In this document: positions 10,396 through 29,865 of the stretch, one piece after another | Position numbering within the stretch: the first letter of the stretch is position 1 | Layout: each line of letters opens with the position of its first letter | DNA from: Dictyostelium discoideum | Lineage: Eukaryota | Length of the DNA: 64,000 nt | Direction of reading: 5' to 3' | NCBI GenBank assembly: GCA_000004695.1 | Contig: CM000154.2 | Span: 960,001 to 1,024,000 of the forward strand | Translations under genes and position numbers: made by a program | Notes under the pieces: generated by a model | What the model was told of the DNA's origin: nothing | The model's input: only the letters and a program-made list of their open reading frames with translations | Database searches by the model: none

Positions 10396-11989
10396 ATGGG
10401 AACAGGTTCATCAAGAGAACAACATTTAAATAGTTTTAATACATTACAAAAAGAAACTGTACCATTTTCATCAGATTTGTGGAAAACAATTCTTTCACAA
10501 AATCTTGAAGATGATTCTTTGTATCTTGAAAATTTAAAAAAATTAAAAAATGAAAGACCTGAGAATCTAGCAACTTTTATAAAAAAAGTAAGAGATTTAA
10601 AAAAAAAAAAAATAAAAAAATAAACAAATAAATAAAATAAAAAAAAAAAAAAATATCTTCTAATTTTTTTTTTTTTTTTCTATTAAAATTTTAGTTAGTA
10701 AATCAATTAGTATTAGTAAAAGGTTTACAAAGAGAAACTAATACACCTGGTGATTTTCAATTAACTTCTATATCATTATCTTACTTATCAAGAATTTTAC
10801 CAATTGTATTCGAAAGTGGAGATGATTTCGCTGATAAAGTCTTTTGGTTAAATGAAGGTATTGAACCATTATCACATCCATCTGCAAAAATCTCAACCCC
10901 TCCTTCAATAACAACAACAAAAACCACTGAAATAATAGAAGAACAAGAAAAAAAAGATCAAGAAAATAAACAAGTTGAAGAGAACAAAGAAAATGAAGAA
11001 AAAAAAGATGAAGAAAAAAAAGATGAAGAAAAAAAAGATGAAGAAAAAAAAGATGAAGATAAAAAAGAAAATAAAACAACAACTACCACAACCACAACCA
11101 ATACTACTAATAATACAAATAATAATAATAATTCTGATGAATCATCATTTGATACAACACCGTTGGCAGTTAAATTAATGGATAGTTTATTAGATTTATT
11201 ATTTTTCCCAGGATTTACAGTTACTGAATCATTAGGTTTAAAGTCTCCAAAGGAAGCATCACCAGATGCAATACCAGTATTATTTAGTTGGGCCGGTGGA
11301 TTTGGTGTTGATAGTGTCCCAACCGTTCATAATAAACAATTTTGGATAAATCGTTTATCAGTATTACAATGTTTAATCACTTGTTTATCTGAACAATTGT
11401 ACGTACCACAAGATTCTGTTTCAACATTCAAAAGTAAATGGTTAGATTGGATAACTCATACTCAAGAATATTATACTGAAGCATTGTTATTCTCTTTAAT
11501 CAATACATTTGCAACATTTGATCCAATAGGTTGGGGTATTCCATACAATCACTTAATGTATTCAGATGATCATGAAATTTGTTCAAAATTATCAATTCAA
11601 ATTTTAAATGTACTTTTAACATATGATCCAATTGAAAATAATGATCAACAACCACAACAACAGCATCATCATCATCAACAACAACATCATCAACAACAAC
11701 AACAACAACAACAATCAACAATTGAATGTAGAAATAAATTTATTCAATATATAAAAACATTGAAAAGAGTTAGAGATTTTAAATTCTTTTTTAATGCATT
11801 TGAAAGAATTATGAATGTTCCATTAATTGCAAGTCATACAAAATTACCAAATTCAACTAAAAAAATAGAACTTCATCAAGATTTAACCTATACAATGTGG
11901 TTATTCCTTTCATATAATCATGTATGTTTTATTATTTAATTATATAATTTGAACTATTATTTGTATTATTTAATTTATATTAATATTAT

Positions 11990-12029
<40 letters not shown>

Positions 12030-13445
12030 TTAATAATTTCTAAAAGGATTTTTTAAGATCAATTGTTAATTATGAAAATTCACCAGAATTTTTAATACCA
12101 TTATTACAATATATGGATGAAGGTAGAAAAAGTCAAACAACACATGGTATAGTTCAAATTGGTACATTTATTTTATTACTTTTAAGTGGTGAAAGAGATT
12201 TCTCAATATCATTGAATAAGCCATTCGTTGGTCGTATTCATATTGATATTCAACAACCTCAAGTTTATTCAGATTTTGTTATCACTGTTATGTATAGATT
12301 ATTGGTCGATACACCAGATCGTTTAGAGAGTATATATGAATGTGTTTTAACGATCCTTTCAAATCTATCACCCTACATGAAGAATCTTTCAATGGTAACT
12401 TGTGTCAAATTGATGAAACTCTTTGAATATCTATCAACTCCAAGATTCTTATTCGCAACAAATCATAACTATCGTTATGTTGGCTTCTTATTGGAATCAT
12501 TGAATAATCTATTACAACATCAATATGAAAGTAACACTCGTTTAATCTATGCAATTCTTAGATGCCAAAATCAATTCTCAAAATTGGCTTACCTTAAAAT
12601 TAGTCCTGTAACCCCTTCAAAACCAATGGAGCAAATCACTCAACCATCACCAATTTCAACCAGTGAAGAAGCATTTGGTAAATTAAATAAACTTTCAATT
12701 TCTGAAGAACCATCAACATTATCAAATGAAAAATCTGATAAAACTACTGATGGTGGTGATCATCAAGATGAATCAATTTCAAAGTCAAAGGTTCAAAGTA
12801 AACCAACTACTGAACATCCAAATAGTACTGGTGCAACACCATCCTCAACAAATTCAGGAACACCAACTATCAAAGCTTTTTCAAGTACAACACCAAATCA
12901 AGAATCACCAAAATTGGGTGGTGATGGTATAGACTCTCAATCATCCACTCCAAATAAACAACAACTACCTCCACCACCACCACAACAAACAAAGAAAACC
13001 CAAATGGTATCTCATTTCATGCCAACTGATGAATGGTTACAAGATATTAAAAAACAATTACCATTAGATAATATCTTAAAAGTTATAACTCATTTATCAC
13101 CACAAATTCAAGGTTTATGCACTGGTTCGTAAGTTAAAATTAAAATTTTTTTTTTTTTTTAGATTTTTTTATTATTACCCTTCTAACATTTTTTCATTTT
13201 TATACAAAAAAAAAAAAAATATTAAAAGGGGATCTGACGAACAAAAAATCATGGACTACTTGAAAATGTCAACAATTGTTGGCATTTTCCATAACCCAGG
13301 TCCAATAATGACTCGTCGTTATCATTCAAATGCTATTACAAAATCTTGGTTCATTGCATACATGTGGTGTATCATTTATTTAGAAAATCATTCACCTCCA
13401 TTATTCCTTCACACAAATATTAAATTATTCCAAGTTAAACAATAA
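10396..13445 (+). CDS. HID1/DYMECLIN-family protein (4 exons: 10396..10587, 10695..11921, 12067..13128, 13229..13445)
   Basis: MGTGSS... N-terminus (myristoylation-type Gly2) and PENLATFIKKV resemble human HID1 ...PSNLATLCYKAV. Exon 2 begins LVNQLVLVKG...LSRILPIVFE (HID1 LVNQ...LSRVLPVVYE). The C-terminal exon RRYHSNAITKSWFIAYMWCIIYLENHSPPLFLHTNIKLFQV matches HID1 RKYQANSGTAMWFRTYMWGVIYLRNVDPPVWYDTDVKLFEIQ. Donors GTAAGA, GTATGT and GTAAGT, all phases consistent. Internal acidic KKDEE repeats and Q/H tracts. Confidence 0.8.
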
Positions 13446-13741
13446 AAATAAAAAAGAAAAAAAAGAAATAAAGAAAAAAAAAATTTTAAATAAAAGTAAA
13501 TAAAATTCAATTAATTGGTACAAACTTGCTCCTTTTATTTTCTATTATTTTTTTTTTTAGTTAAAGTCATCGTTATAACAAGTAAATGCTTATTTTACCT
13601 TTATTTTTATTCTTTTTTTTATTTTTTTATTTTCATTATTTCAAAAGATTTTTGGTTTATAAAATATTGTTTTGTTTTTTTTAAAATGTAAAAATATTAA
13701 AAATTAATCTATTATAATAATAAATAAATAATGATAATTTA

Positions 13742-13857
<116 letters not shown>

Positions 13858-13986
13858 AAAAATTAATTTTATACCAAAATATAATTTTCAAAGAAACTAA
13901 TTAATAAATAGAGAAAAAAGTAATAAAAATCCGAAGTGACATGTAATTTTTGCTTAAACATAAAATTTAATTTAATTTTAAAATTT

Positions 13987-14021
<35 letters not shown>

Positions 14022-14124
14022 AATTTTTATTTTTTTTTTTTTGTATAAATATAGATTTTTTTTTTTTTTTTTTAAAAAAAAAACATTATTTTTATTAATA
14101 AAAATAGTAGAGTAAAAGAATAAA

Positions 14125-14881
14125 ATGACATCTGAAAAGCCAAAAGAATTCCAAGATAAATTTGGAACTGTAGGAAAATCTTATAAAACCTTTAGACCAA
14201 CTTACACTGAAGAACTTTATTCAATTATTGATTCTTATTGTGACTCAAAAAGAGATCTTGCAATTGATTGTGGATGTGGATCAGGCCAAGCAACTGTCAA
14301 ATTAGCCAAATACTTTAAAAAAGTCATTGGTAAGTTTTTTTTTTAAAAAAAAAAAAATAAAATAAAATAAAATAAAATAAAATAAAATAAAATAAAATAA
14401 AATAAAATAAAATAAAATAAAATAAAATAAAATAAAATAAAATAAAATAAAATTCTTCCAAATATTCATAAATTCTTTTAGGATTTGAACCATCACAAGG
14501 TCAAATTGAAAATGCAGTAAAAACAGAAAATGTAGATTTTAGATTATCTCCAGCTGAAAAAATTGATTTACCAAGTGGTTCAGTTGATTTAATTACTGTA
14601 GCAACTGCAGTTCATTGGTTTGATTTACCAGTATTTTATCAAGAAGCAAAAAGATTGCTTAGAGATAATGGATCTTTGATCCTCTTTACAACTGGTTTCA
14701 TCCAAATTCTTAACAATGATGAAGCTCAAAAAATTAATGATAACGTAATTTATTATTTACTTTTACTACTATTTTTTTTTTTTTAACTTTTATTCCTTTT
14801 TTTATTTCTTTTTATTTTATTTCTTTTTTAAATTTTATAGATTTAATTTTTTTAAAATTTTTATAAACTAAATTAAACTAA

Positions 14882-14923
<42 letters not shown>

Positions 14924-15231
14924 GTTCTGGAACTCTTGGAGATTATTGGGCACCAATAGTAAAGTATGTTATTGATGGTTATGTTGATATTAAACCACCA
15001 TTTGAAAATGTTGAAAGAAAAACAATTTCATTACCAAAATTAATGTCAGTAAATGATGTGATTGGTATTTATTCATCATGGTCAGGTTATGCATCATTCA
15101 TTAAAGCTGGAAACAATGATGTTTTACCAGGAGTAAAAGAAAACTTAATGAGTGCTTTCAAAACAACTGATCCTAATGCAGAAATTGTTGAAACTAATTT
15201 CCCAGTTTACATGGTTTTATCTAAAAAATAA
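14125..15231 (+). CDS. Class I SAM-dependent methyltransferase (type-11-like; 3 exons: 14125..14329, 14482..14764, 14920..15231)
   Basis: Motif I DCGCGSGQAT in exon 1, post-I acidic residue and VDLITVATAVHWFD (motif II/III region) in exon 2. Donors GTAAGT (14330) and GTAATT (14765); acceptors ttttAG and a-rich AG; phases 1/0 consistent. Intron 1 contains an (AAAAT)n array. Confidence 0.7.
14354..14452. repeat. (AAAAT)n microsatellite, about 20 units, inside intron 1 of the methyltransferase gene
   Basis: Direct reading: aaaat repeated perfectly. Confidence 0.95.
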
Positions 15232-24109: not shown

Positions 24110-24360
24110 ATGATAATAATAATAAAATAAATAATAAAAATCAAATAGGATAAATCATGTTTTCAATTAAAAAAAAAAAATAAAAATAAAACTTAAAAAG
24201 GTTGGTGTGTTTGGGCAATGAAAATAAATATTTTTGGAAAAAAAAAAAAAAAATTAAAAAAAAAAATTGAAAACCGAAAAACAAAATGAAAAGAAAAAAA
24301 AAAGAAAAATATCCCAAAACAAATAAAATTGAAAACTAAGGTATTTAAAAAAAATAAATA

Positions 24361-24535
24361 TGGTTGTTTAAATTTGTCGATTGCATTTATGCATGAGGCC
24401 AATAACATCATTTAGTATATGTTACTCCAGCATTGATGCATATATAGAGACCCTTTGCGGGGTATCAGATGGATTGGTCTTCGGGTTAGTCCTTATATCT
24501 GATTGCTAGAGAAAGCTGAGCTGGCCTTCCAAAAA
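24361..24535 (+). ncRNA. Copy 1 of a tandemly duplicated, roughly 165-bp GC-rich conserved element; candidate small structured RNA gene (strand uncertain)
   Basis: Near-identical to 24733..24905 (2 substitutions plus a divergent 3' end). It is far GC-richer than the flanks. It contains a TATATAGAG box followed by a segment that folds as GGAUUGGUC-UUCG-GGUUAGUCC (9-bp stem, C(UUCG)G tetraloop) nested within AUCAGAU/AUCUGAU. No ORF. Confidence 0.4.
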
Positions 24536-24732
24536 TAAATTTAAAGAAAAAAAAATTAATAATAAAATAACATATTAGTAAATAATTTAATTTTATTTAT
24601 TTCAATACTAAATTTTATTTTATTTATTTCAAAAATTTTTTTTTTATTTTTATTTTTATTTTTATTTTTTTTTAAAAAATAAAATCCCACAAATTTACAA
24701 AAAAACAAGAGAGTATTTCAAAAACCACCATA

Positions 24733-24905
24733 TTATTTTTAAAATTTGTCAATTGCATTTATGCATGAGGCCAATAACATCATTTAGTATATGTTACTCC
24801 AGCATTGATGCATATATAGAGACCCTTTGCGGGGAATCAGATGGATTGGTCTTCGGGTTAGTCCTTATATTTGATTGCTAGAGAAAGCTGAGCTGGCCTT
24901 TTTAA
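24733..24905 (+). ncRNA. Copy 2 of the same roughly 165-bp element; ends ...GCTGGCCTTTTT (oligo-T, pol III terminator-like)
   Basis: Same sequence as copy 1 (GGGGTATCAG becomes GGGGAATCAG; TATATCTG becomes TATATTTG). Followed directly by T5. Confidence 0.4.
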
Positions 24906-25634
24906 AATCTAAAAAAAAAAATTAATTATAAATATTGATAAAAATAAAAAATAATAAAAAAATTGTTCTATTTAATAAAAACCTTAAATAAATAAATAAA
25001 TAAAAACCACTAATTATTGCCTTTGACGACTAAACTCAAATTAATTAATTTTGAAAAAAAAAAAAAAAAAAATAATAAAAAAAAATAATTTAAACATTGT
25101 TTTTTTATTTTTTTTTTCAAATCTGATTCTTTTATTTATTTTTTATTTATTTATTTGTTTTTAATTGAAAAAAAAAAAAAAAAACTGGAAATAATTTGGT
25201 CAAATTAAAAAAAAATAACAATTATCAAAAATGGAAAATAAAAAAATAAAAAAATAAAAAATAAAAAATAAATAAAATTAAAAAATTTGATGAGGTGAAA
25301 AAAATTATTTAAAAAAAAAAAAAAAAAAAGTGAAATTTTTATAAAAAAAAAAAAATCTAAAAAAGAGGCAGTGGAAAAAAAGAGAATATTTTATTATTTT
25401 TTCAAGTTTTTGTAATTTTATTTTTAAAAAAAGAAAGAGGAATAAAAAAAAAAAAAAATAAATAAATAAAAAAAAATAAAAAAAAAAAAAAATATAAAAA
25501 ACAGTTCAATGACTTTATAAAACTCATTTTGTTAATAATCTTTTTTTTTTTTTTCTTTAAAATAAATACCTATTTTTTTTATAAATAAAATATAAATAAA
25601 ATATAAATATAAAGAAAAAAAAAAAAAAAAAAAA

Positions 25635-28399
<2,765 letters not shown>

Positions 28400-28437: not shown

Positions 28438-29865
28438 TTAAGATTTTTCAATTGTAAATAATTTTGAATCATTACTAAAATTATTAATTTGATTAAAAGA
28501 ATTTGATGGTATATAGATTGTAGTTCTAAAGAATTTTTTATCATTTTTAAAATCATAATCAAAACAAATTATATTAACATTATAAGATGCAATACAAGGT
28601 GCTTTAATTGTAAAAGGTTTAATACCATCGAATGAGATTTTATTATAATCAAAACTTGTCCAATTTGAAATGTTTGTAATTGTTGGTACTTGTTTACCTA
28701 AATAATTTAATGGCAATTCTTTAAGAGTTTGCATTTTATTATGCCATGTTATTGTTTTAAAAAAATTATCATTTGTAAATTCTGAAACATCTTTACGATT
28801 GATTTTAGCCAATTCTAAAATTGATTTATTTTTAATATCTGATACTTTAAATAAAAGATTTTGTTGGAATCCAAAATTACCAATATGCTCTTCACTTAAA
28901 TTACAACGTTTTCTCATATTACATGTATATCTTAATCTAAACTCTTCGTCATCTGAAATCGATTCATTCATTGATAATATTTTAATAATAATTGAATGAA
29001 TTATATCATTTGTTGATAAATAGCAATCAGTTATTATTGATTTAATTAAATTTTCAATTTCAATTAAATTAAAATTAACTTTAATTGTAATATTTTCAAT
29101 TTTTGGTTTTTCGCTACTTGTATCATCACCACTACTACTTCCAAATGGGGTATAGGTATATCCTAAAAATTGTTTACCGTAATCACGAAAATTTTGTAAA
29201 TCTGTTAATGATGGTTGATCCCTATCATAAAAATCTTGACCATTAATTATTATTGGTTTCTTTAATGTTACTTTTTCATTTTCACCATTGTTTGAATAAA
29301 TCATTGAAAGATATTTAAAGAAATAGTACATACTACTTTGATCAAATAATGAATGATTAATACTATATCCAATTACAAAACCATCTTTTAATATGGTTAA
29401 TTTAAATGAACCCATTGGTAATCCTTCTAAATCAAAAGAGAATCCATTTTTCATTCTTTCATCAAGTAATTTCATTGGTATAATTGATTCTAATGTTGTT
29501 GTTTCAATTAATTCATTTTCTCTATTTTCAATTTCCAATTGATCATTAACTTTGTGATGTGATTTTGGTGGGTAACTAATGCACCAAATTCCATTTTCAG
29601 AGTGAAATGTTGATAGTAAAACTGGGAACTCATCGAATACTTGCTCCATTGATTTTAAGAATTTCTCTAAATCAATCTCTCCTTTAAAGAAATAACCACC
29701 TCTTGAGAAAACTGTATGTGCTGCATAATCTAACCCATCAAATTTCTTATAAAAAATATTATTTGATTTAAATAATTTTGAAGTATCTGTCATTTTTAAA
29801 GTTTTTATAATGAAATCTGATTTTTGAAAAAAATATTTTTTTTTTTGAAATAAGCAACAAAACAA
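28438..29865 (-). CDS. HXXXD-motif acyltransferase (BAHD/chloramphenicol-acetyltransferase-like transferase family)
   Basis: Continuous 475-aa ORF with a central catalytic-type motif YSINHSLFDQSS (HxxxD) in a context typical of the transferase family. The true start may be the internal MTDTSKLFK. Assignment rests on motif and general architecture only. Confidence 0.4.
   Translation of the reverse strand: MFCCLFQKKKYFFQKSDFIIKTLKMTDTSKLFKSNNIFYKKFDGLDYAAHTVFSRGGYFFKGEIDLEKFLKSMEQVFDEFPVLLSTFHSENGIWCISYPPKSHHKVNDQLEIENRENELIETTTLESIIPMKLLDERMKNGFSFDLEGLPMGSFKLTILKDGFVIGYSINHSLFDQSSMYYFFKYLSMIYSNNGENEKVTLKKPIIINGQDFYDRDQPSLTDLQNFRDYGKQFLGYTYTPFGSSSGDDTSSEKPKIENITIKVNFNLIEIENLIKSIITDCYLSTNDIIHSIIIKILSMNESISDDEEFRLRYTCNMRKRCNLSEEHIGNFGFQQNLLFKVSDIKNKSILELAKINRKDVSEFTNDNFFKTITWHNKMQTLKELPLNYLGKQVPTITNISNWTSFDYNKISFDGIKPFTIKAPCIASYNVNIICFDYDFKNDKKFFRTTIYIPSNSFNQINNFSNDSKLFTIEKS

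What the first reader, a model, noticed from the sequence alone, without database searches (positions are those of the whole stretch)
24361..24905. Tandem pair of roughly 165-bp GC-rich conserved elements with a UUCG-capped hairpin: candidate unannotated small-RNA genes
Two near-identical copies about 370 bp apart stand out sharply from intergenic DNA that is otherwise more than 85% A+T. Only 2 substitutions separate the cores, although the spacer and flanks are unrelated, which suggests selection or recent gene conversion. Each copy has an upstream TATATAGAG box. About 25 bp downstream lies a segment that can fold as an extended imperfect stem (AUCAGAU/AUCUGAU) enclosing GGAUUGGUC-UUCG-GGUUAGUCC. 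Copy 2 ends in T5, like a pol III terminator, whereas copy 1 reads ...GGCCTTCC. No ORF is present. I could not match it to U1/U2/U4/U5/U6, 5S, SRP or the Dictyostelium Class I RNA 11-nt motif from memory.
Basis: seen in the sequence. Interest (0 to 1): 0.6.

Follow-up and report, generated by a model that had tools for sequence, protein, structure and literature searches.

The report
Conserved tandem snoRNA-like gene pair

Summary
Two 159-bp blocks (24370-24528 and 24742-24900, + strand) differ at 3 positions. They are 40% G+C inside 10-11% G+C DNA, and their flanks are no more alike than shuffled sequence.

They are genes. A DUSE promoter motif (TCCCA[A/C]AA) lies 63-66 nt upstream of the point where conservation begins. 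That point is the start of the block, not downstream of TATATAGAG, which is internal to the RNA.

The window is D. discoideum chromosome 5, between atg6B and an uncharacterised gene. The same tandem pair sits at the syntenic site in a second D. discoideum strain, D. cf. discoideum, D. citrinum, D. dimigraforme and D. firmibasis. The 12 genes are 94-100% identical, the DUSE is invariant, and conservation ends exactly at ...GCUGGCC.

Outside the UUCG hairpin the RNA is almost invariant. The hairpin changes at roughly the neutral rate, mostly through pair-preserving changes, including one G-C to A-U swap.

The RNA has a complete box C/D kink-turn (CCAGC-AUU-GA-UGC ... GCUGA-GCUGG; 4e-5 in matched shuffles) behind a 52-nt 5' extension. 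Rfam finds nothing. It is not U3, not a SNORD13-type guide, not a Class I RNA and not among the 47 catalogued D. discoideum box C/D snoRNAs. The target and the polymerase are unknown.

The parts
24312..24319 (+). DUSE promoter element of gene 1 (TCCCAAAA)
   Evidence: It matches the published motif [AT]CCCA[AT]AA, found about 63 bp upstream of Dictyostelium ncRNA genes (PMC3188802). It lies 64 nt upstream of G24376. The motif is invariant at -63 to -66 in all 12 orthologous genes.
24341..24346 (+). GTATTT (TATA-like) element at -35 to -30 of gene 1
   Evidence: It has the same position in gene 2 (24713-24718). TATTT is nearly invariant in the 12 genes. The function is inferred.
24370..24378 (+). 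Initiator-like AAATTTGTC; cross-species conservation begins here
   Evidence: In alignment A2 conservation starts at A[A/G/T]TT[T/C]GTC. It resembles the AAATGTG 'TGTG box' that lies about 60 nt downstream of the DUSE in Class I genes (PMC7919456). The exact transcription start is uncertain by about 6 nt.
24376..24526 (+). Gene 1: conserved RNA, 151 nt (nt 1 = 24376; conservation ends at ...GCUGGCC)
   Evidence: It is 94-100% identical in 12 genes from 6 assemblies. It scores 176-193 bits with the covariance model. There is no Rfam match.
24377..24396 (+). Hairpin 1 (UCG-AU-UGCA-UUUA-UGCA-UGA)
   Evidence: It is found by RNAalifold. The loop carries a 2-nt insertion in D. firmibasis and an A-to-U change in D. 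dimigraforme while the stem is kept. G4A changes G.U to A-U.
24398..24431 (+). Invariant part of the 5' extension (nt 23-56), including the possible hairpin UAACAU-CAUUUAGUAU-AUGUUA and the 5' strand CCAGC of the terminal stem (24427-24431)
   Evidence: There are no substitutions in 12 genes. Nt 36-47 are complementary to a U6 consensus recalled from memory, which is a lead only.
24433..24439 (+). Box C (UUGAUGC), preceded by loop nucleotide A57
   Evidence: The kink-turn geometry is CCAGC-AUU-GA-UGC paired with GCUGA-GCUGG. It occurs 0.02 times per 64 kb in shuffles and in 4e-5 of composition-matched shuffles. The only change across species is at loop position A57C in D. dimigraforme.
24445..24450 (+). 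UAGAGA hexamer 1 (nt 70-75), invariant
   Evidence: A second identical hexamer lies at 24507-24512. A role in a non-canonical helix or a protein site is inference.
24450..24463 (+). Hairpin 3 (ACCCU-UUGC-GGGGU)
   Evidence: It is predicted by folding. The stem is invariant except the closing pair.
24464..24503 (+). Hairpin 4: lower stem AUCAGAU/AUCUGAU, UUAU bulge, upper stem GGAUUGGUC/GGUUAGUCC, UUCG loop
   Evidence: 13 of 40 columns vary. There is one compensatory G-C to A-U pair (nt 97/116, D. firmibasis), seven wobble-type one-sided changes within this hairpin, and a few A.C or A.A cells. The four G.U pairs make it far stronger on the + strand.
24504..24515 (+). Single-stranded element next to box D, UGCUAGAGAAAG (nt 129-140); candidate antisense element
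   Evidence: It is invariant except U129A in one gene. By the +5 rule it would direct a Cm. The three D. discoideum rRNA 2'-O-methyl sites without a guide are A, A and G.
24516..24524 (+). Box D (CUGA, 24516-24519) and the 3' strand of the terminal stem (GCUGG, 24520-24524)
   Evidence: Conservation stops 2 nt after this stem.
24685..24692 (+). DUSE of gene 2 (TCCCACAA)
   Evidence: It lies 63 nt upstream of G24748.
24713..24718 (+). GTATTT element of gene 2
   Evidence: It is at -35 to -30, as in gene 1.
24748..24898 (+). Gene 2: second copy of the 151-nt RNA (box C 24805-24811, box D 24888-24891)
   Evidence: It differs from gene 1 by G4A, U88A and C124U. C124U keeps the pair as G.U on the + strand.
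24899..24903 (+). T5 run after gene 2
   Evidence: It is present here but is not conserved among orthologues. It is not evidence for pol III.

Best explanation
The region holds two independently transcribed, tandem genes (24376-24526 and 24748-24898, + strand) for a ~151-nt non-coding RNA of Dictyostelium discoideum.

Shown:
- Each gene has a DUSE element at about -64, a TATTT element at about -33 and a conserved start motif.
- The pair is retained at the same chromosomal site in five related assemblies (four other named taxa plus a second D. discoideum strain).
- The RNA is under strong purifying selection, and the two copies are partly homogenised by gene conversion.

Inferred:
[quoted passage not shown] Box C (UUGAUGC, nt 58-64) and box D (CUGA, nt 141-144), clamped by the 5-bp stem CCAGC/GCUGG, would form a kink-turn. 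That kink-turn would bind Snu13 and then Nop58, Nop56 and fibrillarin.
- The bound proteins would define the 3' end by blocking exonucleases about 2 nt past the stem, which is where conservation ends.
- The 52-nt 5' extension is kept because the primary 5' end is capped, as in U3, U8 and U13, which also use snRNA-type promoters.
- The invariant single-stranded tracts would contact another RNA. These are the 5' extension, AUAUAUAGAGA after box C and UGCUAGAGAAAG before box D.
- The particle would therefore act as a chaperone, processing factor or base-modification guide rather than as one of the mapped rRNA 2'-O-methylation guides.
- The UUCG hairpin would be a structural spacer.

The target and the polymerase are not established.
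For: Gene status:
- A DUSE lies at -63 to -66 in 12 of 12 genes whose flanks are otherwise scrambled. The motif and its distance are as published (PMC3188802; PMC7919456).
- The promoter-proximal 70 nt are 66-91% identical between orthologues, against a 50-56% baseline. DNA further upstream is at baseline.

Conservation:
- The pair is syntenic in L006-L010.
- 9 of 113 columns vary outside hairpin 4, and four of those are one loop indel. 13 of 40 columns vary inside hairpin 4.
- Four-fold-site divergence of the neighbouring gene reaches 0.22.
- Conservation ends exactly at GCUGGCC.

Strand:
- The DUSE orientation points to the + strand, and no DUSE lies on the other side.
- The hairpin has four G.U pairs, and the G-C to G.U changes keep pairs only on the + strand.

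Structure:
- RNAalifold recovers hairpins 1, 3 and 4.
- 98.4% of cells are paired, with one compensatory pair and eight one-sided compatible pairs.

Box C/D:
- The full arrangement is expected 0.02 times per 64 kb.
- It occurs in 8 of 200,000 composition-matched shuffles, and in none of them that close to the 3' end.
- The boxes and stem are invariant. The only nearby change is at a kink-turn loop position.

Not coding.
Against: - Box C departs from RUGAUGA at both ends (U for R, C for the last A). Almost all catalogued D. discoideum snoRNAs have AUGAUGA.
- There is no convincing C'/D' pair.
- No target was found. The +5 rule predicts a Cm, which does not match the three unassigned rRNA sites.
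- The terminal stem, hairpin 2 and hairpin 3 never vary, so covariation cannot separate the box C/D fold from RNAalifold's alternative (GGCCA nt 22-26 with UGGCC nt 147-151, and nt 40-47 with nt 63-70).
- Single-sequence folding energy is unremarkable (z = -0.15).
- No expression, cap, protein-binding or localisation data could be examined.
- All comparison species are close relatives (four-fold-site divergence 0.22 or less).
- The RNA could not be looked for in whole genomes or in distant dictyostelids, because the three loci fetched from those were not syntenic.
Confidence: 0.6

Rival explanations
1. It is an ordinary 2'-O-methylation guide snoRNA. The 12-nt element UGCUAGAGAAAG next to box D directs fibrillarin to a Cm in CUUUCUCUAGCA on an RNA not yet mapped, such as an snRNA, a tRNA, pre-rRNA spacer, or a sub-threshold rRNA site. 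On this view the 5' extension is only an accessory or leader sequence.
For: The box C/D kink-turn is present. An invariant single-stranded 12-mer directly abuts box D. Extra base-pairing elements are known to assist some guides (van Nues 2011, listed in the reference list of PMC8817022 as returned; this claim rests on my own knowledge and the paper was not read).
Against: The three rRNA 2'-O-methyl sites lacking a guide are Am1469, Am2547 and Gm3255, not a C. The 12-mer's complement was not found in the rRNA context strings held in that paper's supplement. A mere leader would not be invariant over 33 nt in five species. Independent promoter use with a retained 52-nt 5' arm is typical of non-methylating snoRNAs.
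Confidence: 0.18
2. It is a structured non-coding RNA of a new class that is not a snoRNP. The C/D-like motif would be either fortuitous or a Snu13-type kink-turn used in another particle, as in the 5' stem-loop of U4. The true fold would be the RNAalifold one, with a GGCCA/UGGCC closing helix.
For: It has a DUSE promoter, as do snRNAs and Class I RNAs. The alternative fold is thermodynamically preferred (-39.6 against -32.4 kcal/mol). There is no match to any Rfam family. There is a 12-nt perfect complementarity to a U6 consensus (0 of 500 shuffles reach it).
Against: The complete kink-turn plus terminal stem, ending 2 nt from the conserved 3' end, is very unlikely by chance. G22A in two genes breaks the first pair of the alternative closing helix but is neutral in the box C/D model. 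There is no Sm site, and none of the snRNA covariance models match. The U6 sequence was recalled from memory and the match was found post hoc.
Confidence: 0.17
3. It is not an RNA gene. It would be a DNA-level element such as a transposon end or LTR, a solo repeat, a protein-binding site or a micro-exon.
For: It is a sharply bounded GC-rich repeat in AT-rich DNA. One reading frame is open for 44 codons.
Against: There are exactly two copies at one orthologous site in six assemblies, each with a conserved DUSE at fixed distance. There are no further copies in the 64-kb window or in about 100 kb of related loci. There are no tRNA genes nearby. All frames have stops, and the open frame takes all three substitutions at second codon positions. 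The substitution pattern follows RNA pairing.
Confidence: 0.02
4. It is the missing Dictyostelium telomerase RNA, carrying a box C/D domain like the trypanosome one.
For: No Dictyostelium telomerase RNA is known (own knowledge). Nt 71-81 AGAGACCCUUU match 10 of 11 positions of the D. firmibasis telomeric repeat GAGGAGAGAGTCCCTTTTTTT.
Against: The match is in the same sense as the purine-rich strand, so it cannot template it. The longest exact match to either repeat on either strand is 4-6 nt, which is chance level (P 0.24-0.99). No window of 12 nt or more matches with at most 1 mismatch. The RNA is far smaller than known non-ciliate telomerase RNAs.
Confidence: 0.01

Closest known systems
Independently transcribed, 5'-extended box C/D snoRNAs (U3, U8, U13/SNORD13; yeast snR4 and snR45)
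   Same: It has its own snRNA-type promoter (here the DUSE). A long 5' arm lies ahead of box C, which sits at nt 58-64, much as in U8 by my recollection. A single C/D kink-turn closes a 3' domain filled by hairpins. The 3' end lies just past the terminal stem. No rRNA methylation target is apparent.
   Different: None of the family-defining antisense elements is present. There is no U3 box A/A' (GGAUC...) and no B/C motif. There are no SNORD13-type elements flanking the helix 45 or helix 34 CCG. There is no Rfam hit to U3, U8, U13 or U14. D. discoideum already has a 210-nt U3, called D2.
Catalogued D. discoideum box C/D snoRNAs (CD1-38 and OR1-9; Diesend et al. 2022, PMC8817022)
   Same: Box C/D motif, intergenic location, G+C near 40% and tandem arrangement. 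Several catalogued snoRNA genes are also clustered about 300 bp apart.
   Different: The catalogued RNAs are 66-113 nt long with box C near the 5' end and mostly AUGAUGA. This RNA is 151 nt with a 52-nt 5' arm and a UUGAUGC box C. No catalogued entry has its box C, its length, or an identical partner 372 bp away. No chromosome 5 position was converted between assemblies.
DUSE-dependent ncRNA genes of Dictyostelia (spliceosomal snRNAs, Class I and II RNAs)
   Same: The same promoter motif at the same distance, a conserved start motif resembling the TGTG box, multi-copy genes with near-identical coding regions, and unrelated flanks.
   Different: It has no Sm site, none of the snRNA models match, and it lacks the Class I 11-nt motif (CCUUACAGCAA). 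It is two to three times longer than Class I RNAs.

Membership tests
Box C/D snoRNA (general) | Box C (RUGAUGA) and box D (CUGA) positioned to form a kink-turn with tandem sheared G.A pairs | tested here: met
   UUGAUGC and CUGA have the correct 3-nt loop, the GA/GA pairs, U.U, G-C and an extra C-G. The two GA dinucleotides are invariant in 12 genes. Chance frequency is 4e-5. Box C deviates at its first and last positions.
Box C/D snoRNA (general) | A 5'/3' terminal stem directly flanking the boxes, with the mature 3' end a few nt beyond | tested here: met
   CCAGC/GCUGG forms 5 Watson-Crick pairs. Cross-species conservation stops 2 nt after it. The stem never varies, so there is no covariation support.
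Box C/D snoRNA (general) | An antisense element of at least 10 nt abutting box D or D', matching rRNA or snRNA with the modified nucleotide opposite position +5 | tested here: inconclusive
   A 12-nt invariant single-stranded element abuts box D. The predicted Cm does not match the three unassigned sites. D. discoideum rRNA and snRNA sequences could not be obtained.
Box C/D snoRNA (general) | Internal C' and D' boxes | tested here: not met
   CAGA and UGAUUG lie in a perfect 7-bp helix rather than a kink-turn. CAGA becomes CAGG in D. citrinum c1. Many atypical snoRNAs, such as the U3 C'/D, U8 and U13, also lack this feature.
Box C/D snoRNA (general) | Binding of Snu13, Nop56, Nop58 and fibrillarin; nucleolar localisation | not testable with these tools
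   This needs immunoprecipitation or imaging.
U3 snoRNA | Match to the U3 covariance models; boxes A'/A (…GGAUCAUUUCUAUAG…), GAC, and a B/C kink-turn | tested here: not met
   There is no U3-family hit even at E<=10 on the isolated transcript. The box A-like AUCAUUUAGUAUAUG lacks GGAUC. There is no B/C motif. The known D. discoideum U3 is 210 nt (GenBank V00190).
SNORD13 / snR45 / snR4 (rRNA acetylation guides) | Two imperfect antisense elements flanking the CCG of 18S helix 45 or helix 34 | tested here: not met
   The longest complementarity to helix 45 is 6 nt and 8 nt (P >= 0.58). Human SNORD13 as a control gives 15 and 13. Helix 34 is at chance or borderline, and in the wrong topology (by-eye reading of which element pairs 5' and 3' of the CCG, not scored). 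The 18S segments were universal sequences recalled from memory. The family definition is from PMC9226516.
SNORD13 / U3 / U8 type | Independent snRNA-type promoter and a retained (capped) 5' extension | tested here: met
   A DUSE lies at -63 to -66 in 12 of 12 genes, and the 5' extension is invariant. The cap itself was not testable.
DUSE-dependent ncRNA genes | [AT]CCCA[AT]AA about 60-63 nt upstream of the transcription start | tested here: met
   Some copies have C or T at the sixth position.
Dictyostelium Class I / II RNAs | Length of 42-65 nt, a terminal 5-bp stem and the 11-12-nt motif CCUUACAGC(C)AA | tested here: not met
   The motif is absent from the sequence, and the length is 151 nt.
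Spliceosomal snRNAs, SRP, RNase P/MRP, 5S, vault and Y RNAs | Match to the Rfam covariance model | tested here: not met
   There are no hits at gathering score in the window or in seven related loci, and only noise at E<=10.
Telomerase RNA | A single-stranded template complementary to more than one telomeric repeat unit | tested here: not met
   See, tested against the repeats reported for D. firmibasis.
Dictyostelium transposons (DIRS, Skipper, DGLT, Tdd, TRE, thug) | Dispersed multi-copy element with terminal repeats or ORFs; TRE elements lie next to tRNA genes | tested here: inconclusive
   No Repbase or whole-genome search was possible. Against membership: there are two copies only, at one syntenic site in six assemblies, with their own promoters, no ORF and no tRNA in the window.

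The most novel reading that the evidence does not exclude
This RNA is a previously undescribed, lineage-restricted 'processing-type' box C/D snoRNP, a functional counterpart of U8, U14, snR190 or U13. Its invariant 5' arm and the two UAGAGA tracts would base-pair with pre-rRNA. Alternatively, as the 12+5-nt complementarity to U6 nt 18-35 hints, they would pair with U6 snRNA. On this reading the RNA is required for ribosome or spliceosome biogenesis in the D. discoideum clade.
Probability: 0.25. Interest if true: 0.7.

Novelty: new member of a known kind. Interest (0 to 1): 0.5.

Why it matters
Dictyostelium is a model organism with a curated non-coding RNA catalogue, yet this RNA matches no Rfam family and is not among the 47 published box C/D snoRNAs. 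Recent dictyostelid genome annotations take snoRNAs from Rfam models only, so it would be missed there as well.

Non-methylating snoRNAs with their own promoter and a 5' arm (U3, U8, U13, U14, snR4/45) are few, and most have roles in ribosome assembly. U8 and its relatives are thought to be restricted to particular lineages. A new example in Amoebozoa, with about 105 nt that do not change across the D. discoideum species group, would point to an unrecognised step or partner in RNA processing.

It also gives a clean case of a DUSE promoter with conserved -33 and start elements, and of concerted evolution in a two-gene family. If it turns out to be already annotated in dictyBase under another name, the finding reduces to a well-characterised member of a known class.

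Tried and rejected
Database and homologue searches:
- Rfam at gathering score on the window and on seven related loci, and at E<=10 on 700 nt and on the isolated transcript. Only noise was returned.
- Literature searches for sequence strings in both alphabets. No hits.
- The primary papers (Aspegren 2004, Hinas 2006, Boesler 2011) are not held.
- Sequence strings in the Diesend supplement. This was uninformative because the file holds tables, not sequences. The tables themselves exclude a match.
- A first homologue hunt through Atg6 gave no Dictyostelium hits, and the contigs it did give lacked the RNA.
- The metagenome two-anchor scan returned two chance hits in bacterial glycerol kinase genes. 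A viral scan returned nothing.
- Exact look-ups of two neighbouring ORFs failed because the gene models differ.
- Loci from D. purpureum, P. violaceum and T. lacteum were not syntenic and contain no homologue by nhmmer or covariance model.

Candidate identities rejected:
- U3: no model hit, no GGAUC box A, no B/C motif, and a 210-nt U3 already exists.
- U14, U4, U2 and U12 likenesses seen by eye: no Rfam support.
- SNORD13-type acetylation guide.
- Complementarity to the 18S 5' end (P = 0.71).
- Methylation guide for the three unassigned rRNA sites.
- Telomerase template.
- An internal pol III A/B box in the 5' arm. The TCGA-like core is hit by the G4A polymorphism.
- A GAGG/CCUU extension of the terminal stem. 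The last two U's are not conserved, and G22A occurs.
- Coding exon.

Other points set aside:
- A third C/D-like site at about 15039-15101 (-) lies antisense to a coding exon and was set aside as probable chance.
- One wasted call cited a model that did not yet exist.
Full report
**The observation**

The window contains a direct repeat with a start-to-start spacing of 372 bp. The shared block is 159 bp, at 24370-24528 and 24742-24900. The two blocks differ at three positions, not two: 24379 G/A, 24463 T/A and 24499 C/T.

The blocks are 39-40% G+C inside DNA of 10-11% G+C. Outside them the two copies are no more alike than shuffled AT-rich sequence: upstream 0.507 against 0.511, downstream 0.597 against 0.598. 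Every reading frame contains stop codons.

Two details were wrong. TATATAGAG is inside the conserved unit, not upstream of it. The T5 after copy 2 proves not to be a general feature.

**Source and neighbours**

An exact look-up of a window-encoded protein places the window on a 5.29-Mb chromosome of NCBI assembly GCA_054883475.1. The neighbouring ORF at 28438-29865 (-) is DDB_G0288023 of *Dictyostelium discoideum* AX4. The gene between it and the repeat is the Beclin/Atg6 homologue.

**These are genes on the + strand**

The published Dictyostelium upstream sequence element, [AT]CCCA[AT]AA, lies about 60-63 nt upstream of snRNA and Class I RNA genes (PMC3188802; PMC7919456). TCCCAAAA lies at 24312-24319 and TCCCACAA at 24685-24692. 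These are 64 and 63 nt upstream of the GTC where the two copies become alike.

The motif is not over-represented in the window as a whole (11 observed against 9.3 expected). What counts is its position, and the comparative data settle that point.

**Comparative data**

Orthologues of DDB_G0288023 gave syntenic 21-kb loci from five further assemblies:
- a second D. discoideum strain
- D. cf. discoideum
- D. citrinum
- D. dimigraforme
- D. firmibasis

All five loci have the same gene order. All carry two copies of the unit in the gap between atg6B and the next gene, at 94-100% identity to the window RNA. Over the same species the neighbouring protein falls to 81% identity.

In the 12-gene alignment with flanks (A2; distances):
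- The DUSE is invariant and sits at -63 to -66.
- A TATTT element at about -33 is nearly invariant.
- Conservation begins at A[A/G/T]TT[T/C]GTC and stops exactly after GCUGGCC.
- Orthologous promoter-proximal DNA (-70 to -1) is 66-91% identical, against a 50-56% baseline.
- DNA further upstream is at baseline, even between close relatives.

A run of four or more T directly after the gene occurs only in some downstream copies. The upstream copies have none for 33-82 nt. The pol III terminator reading is therefore not supported, and the polymerase remains open.

**Selection and concerted evolution**

Four-fold-site divergence of the neighbouring gene from D. discoideum is 0.04, 0.09, 0.13, 0.16 and 0.22 in the five assemblies. 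Over the same comparisons only 9 of 113 alignment columns vary outside the UUCG hairpin, and four of those are a single loop indel. Inside the hairpin 13 of 40 columns vary.

About 105 nt never change:
- nt 23-56 of the 5' arm
- box C
- AUAUAUAGAGACCCUUUGCGGGG
- GCUAGAGAAAGCUGAGCUGGCC

Species-specific changes are usually shared by both copies within a species. Examples are the 2-nt loop insertion plus G97A, U111C and C116U in D. firmibasis, and A57C, U99A and G102A in D. dimigraforme. In contrast, each copy's flanks are orthologous across species, and one marker (C124U) follows the downstream copy through four taxa. The duplication is therefore old, and the coding regions are homogenised patchily by gene conversion under purifying selection.

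**Structure**

RNAalifold recovers hairpin 1, hairpin 3 and the UUCG hairpin. Hairpin 1 includes U2-A21, C3-G20 and G4.U19, so the G4A polymorphism becomes a G.U to A-U change.

For my full model, 98.4% of cells form standard pairs. There is one compensatory pair (G97-C116 to A97-U116) and eight pairs with one-sided wobble-compatible changes. A few cells are A.C or A.A.

The shuffle controls are only modestly exceeded (about 20 of 500 reach the observed values). Since most changes are transitions, covariation support is real but limited, and it is confined to hairpins 1 and 4. The other helices never vary. The four G.U pairs of the upper stem and the G-C to G.U changes are compatible only with the + strand.

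**Class of RNA**

The + strand reads CCAGC-AUU-GA-UGC (nt 52-64) and G-C-U-GA-GCUGG (nt 140-149). This is exactly the geometry of a box C/D kink-turn:
- a 5-bp canonical stem
- a 3-nt loop
- tandem G.A and A.G pairs
- then U.U, G-C and C-G

The arrangement is expected 0.02 times per 64 kb in block shuffles. It occurred in 8 of 200,000 composition-matched shuffles of the RNA, and never so close to the 3' end. All of its nucleotides are invariant. The only nearby change, A57C, is at a loop position that kink-turns tolerate. Conservation stops 2 nt after the stem, as expected if a bound snoRNP defines the 3' end.

Ahead of box C lies a 52-nt, almost invariant 5' arm. This combination of an snRNA-type promoter, a retained 5' arm, a single C/D kink-turn and a hairpin-filled 3' domain is that of U3, U8, U13/SNORD13 and yeast snR4/snR45.

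**Membership tests**

- **Rfam.** No family matches at gathering score or at E<=10, including all U3, U8, U13, U14 and snRNA models.
- **U3.** D. discoideum U3 is the 210-nt D2 RNA. The box A-like stretch here lacks GGAUC, and there is no B/C motif.
- **SNORD13 type.** These guides are defined by two antisense elements around the CCG of helix 45 or helix 34 (PMC9226516). This RNA has only chance-level matches, whereas human SNORD13 scores 15 and 13 nt in the same test. The rRNA segments were recalled from memory, but the region is reported to be extremely conserved.
- **Methylation guide.** The 12-nt element next to box D would specify a Cm. The three mapped D. discoideum rRNA methylations without a guide are Am1469, Am2547 and Gm3255.
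- **Catalogued snoRNAs.** The 47 catalogued box C/D snoRNAs are 66-113 nt, and none has this box C or this tandem arrangement.
- **Class I RNA.** The Class I motif is absent.
- **Telomerase RNA.** A telomerase-template reading fails.

**Leads, not tests**

Nt 36-47 (UUUAGUAUAUGU) are perfectly complementary to nt 18-29 of a U6 consensus recalled from memory, and no shuffle out of 500 reaches 12 nt. CCAAU (nt 24-28) could extend this pairing to U6 nt 31-35. The match was found after looking at several RNAs, and the Dictyostelium U6 sequence could not be obtained.

Two invariant UAGAGA hexamers flank the kink-turn. Antiparallel, they would form two Watson-Crick pairs around four tandem purine-purine pairs. 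Neither lead is established.

**Limits**

- No expression, cap, protein-binding or localisation data were available.
- All homologues come from one closely related species group.
- The three more distant dictyostelid loci were not syntenic and lack the RNA, so its wider distribution is unknown.
- Whole genomes, Repbase and dictyBase could not be searched. Copy number elsewhere in the genome and prior annotation under another name remain open.
- The box C/D fold competes with a thermodynamically better alternative. Covariation cannot exclude that alternative. Only G22A in two genes argues weakly against it.

**Verdict**

This is a real, conserved, tandemly duplicated pair of DUSE-driven genes for a ~151-nt RNA. 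Confidence that it is a functional RNA gene pair is above 0.95. It is most likely an atypical box C/D snoRNA with a capped 5' arm (confidence about 0.6). Its target is unknown. I rate it a new member of a known kind, of moderate interest.

Noticed in passing
window 15039-15101 (-): A compact, complete box C/D-like arrangement (UAAUG-AA-UGAUGC...CUGA...AUGAUGA...CUGA-CAUUA) lies antisense to the last coding exon of a methyltransferase-like gene on the + strand. Its D-box-adjacent element shares 15 of 16 nt (CCAAUnACAUCAUUUA) with nt 24-39 of the RNA studied here. Because it sits in coding sequence (TCATCA = Ser-Ser) it is probably chance.
   Followed up: partly
window 24536-24556 and 24909-24923; same position in L006-L010: All 12 genes have a TAAA(G/A) motif followed by a run of 7-13 A, starting 8-30 nt past the conserved 3' end. 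It could be a 3'-end formation signal, or simply AT-rich background that aligns easily.
   Followed up: partly
window 24370-24378 and 24742-24750: [quoted passage not shown] This suggests a shared initiator-type element of DUSE promoters.
   Followed up: no
window 24411-24422 (nt 36-47) and 24399-24403 (nt 24-28): There is a 12-nt perfect complementarity to U6 snRNA consensus nt 18-29, with a possible 5-bp extension. It is significant against shuffles for that single target (0 of 500), but it was found post hoc and the U6 sequence was recalled from memory.
   Followed up: partly
window 24445-24450 and 24507-24512: Two identical, invariant UAGAGA hexamers lie 5 nt after box C and 3 nt before box D. 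Antiparallel, they could form U-A, four tandem A.G/G.A pairs and A-U (the pairing is inference).
   Followed up: no
window 24446-24456 (nt 71-81): AGAGACCCUUU matches 10 of 11 positions, in the same sense, of the telomeric repeat GAGGAGAGAGTCCCTTTTTTT reported for D. firmibasis. There is no template-type complementarity, so the match was judged coincidental.
   Followed up: yes
window 25913-28399 (+); L006-L010 about 11400-14350 (-): The Beclin/Atg6 gene (atg6B) lies 1 kb downstream of the RNA pair. A protein search with its conserved domain returned no Dictyostelium sequences, although orthologues are called in all five related loci. This is a gap in the searchable protein set, not a real absence.
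   Followed up: partly
L006-L010, RNA pair: Spacing between the two genes varies from 302 to 387 bp among species. The marker C124U follows the downstream copy through D. discoideum, D. cf. discoideum and D. citrinum, whereas most other changes are shared by both copies within a species. This indicates patchy gene conversion.
   Followed up: partly
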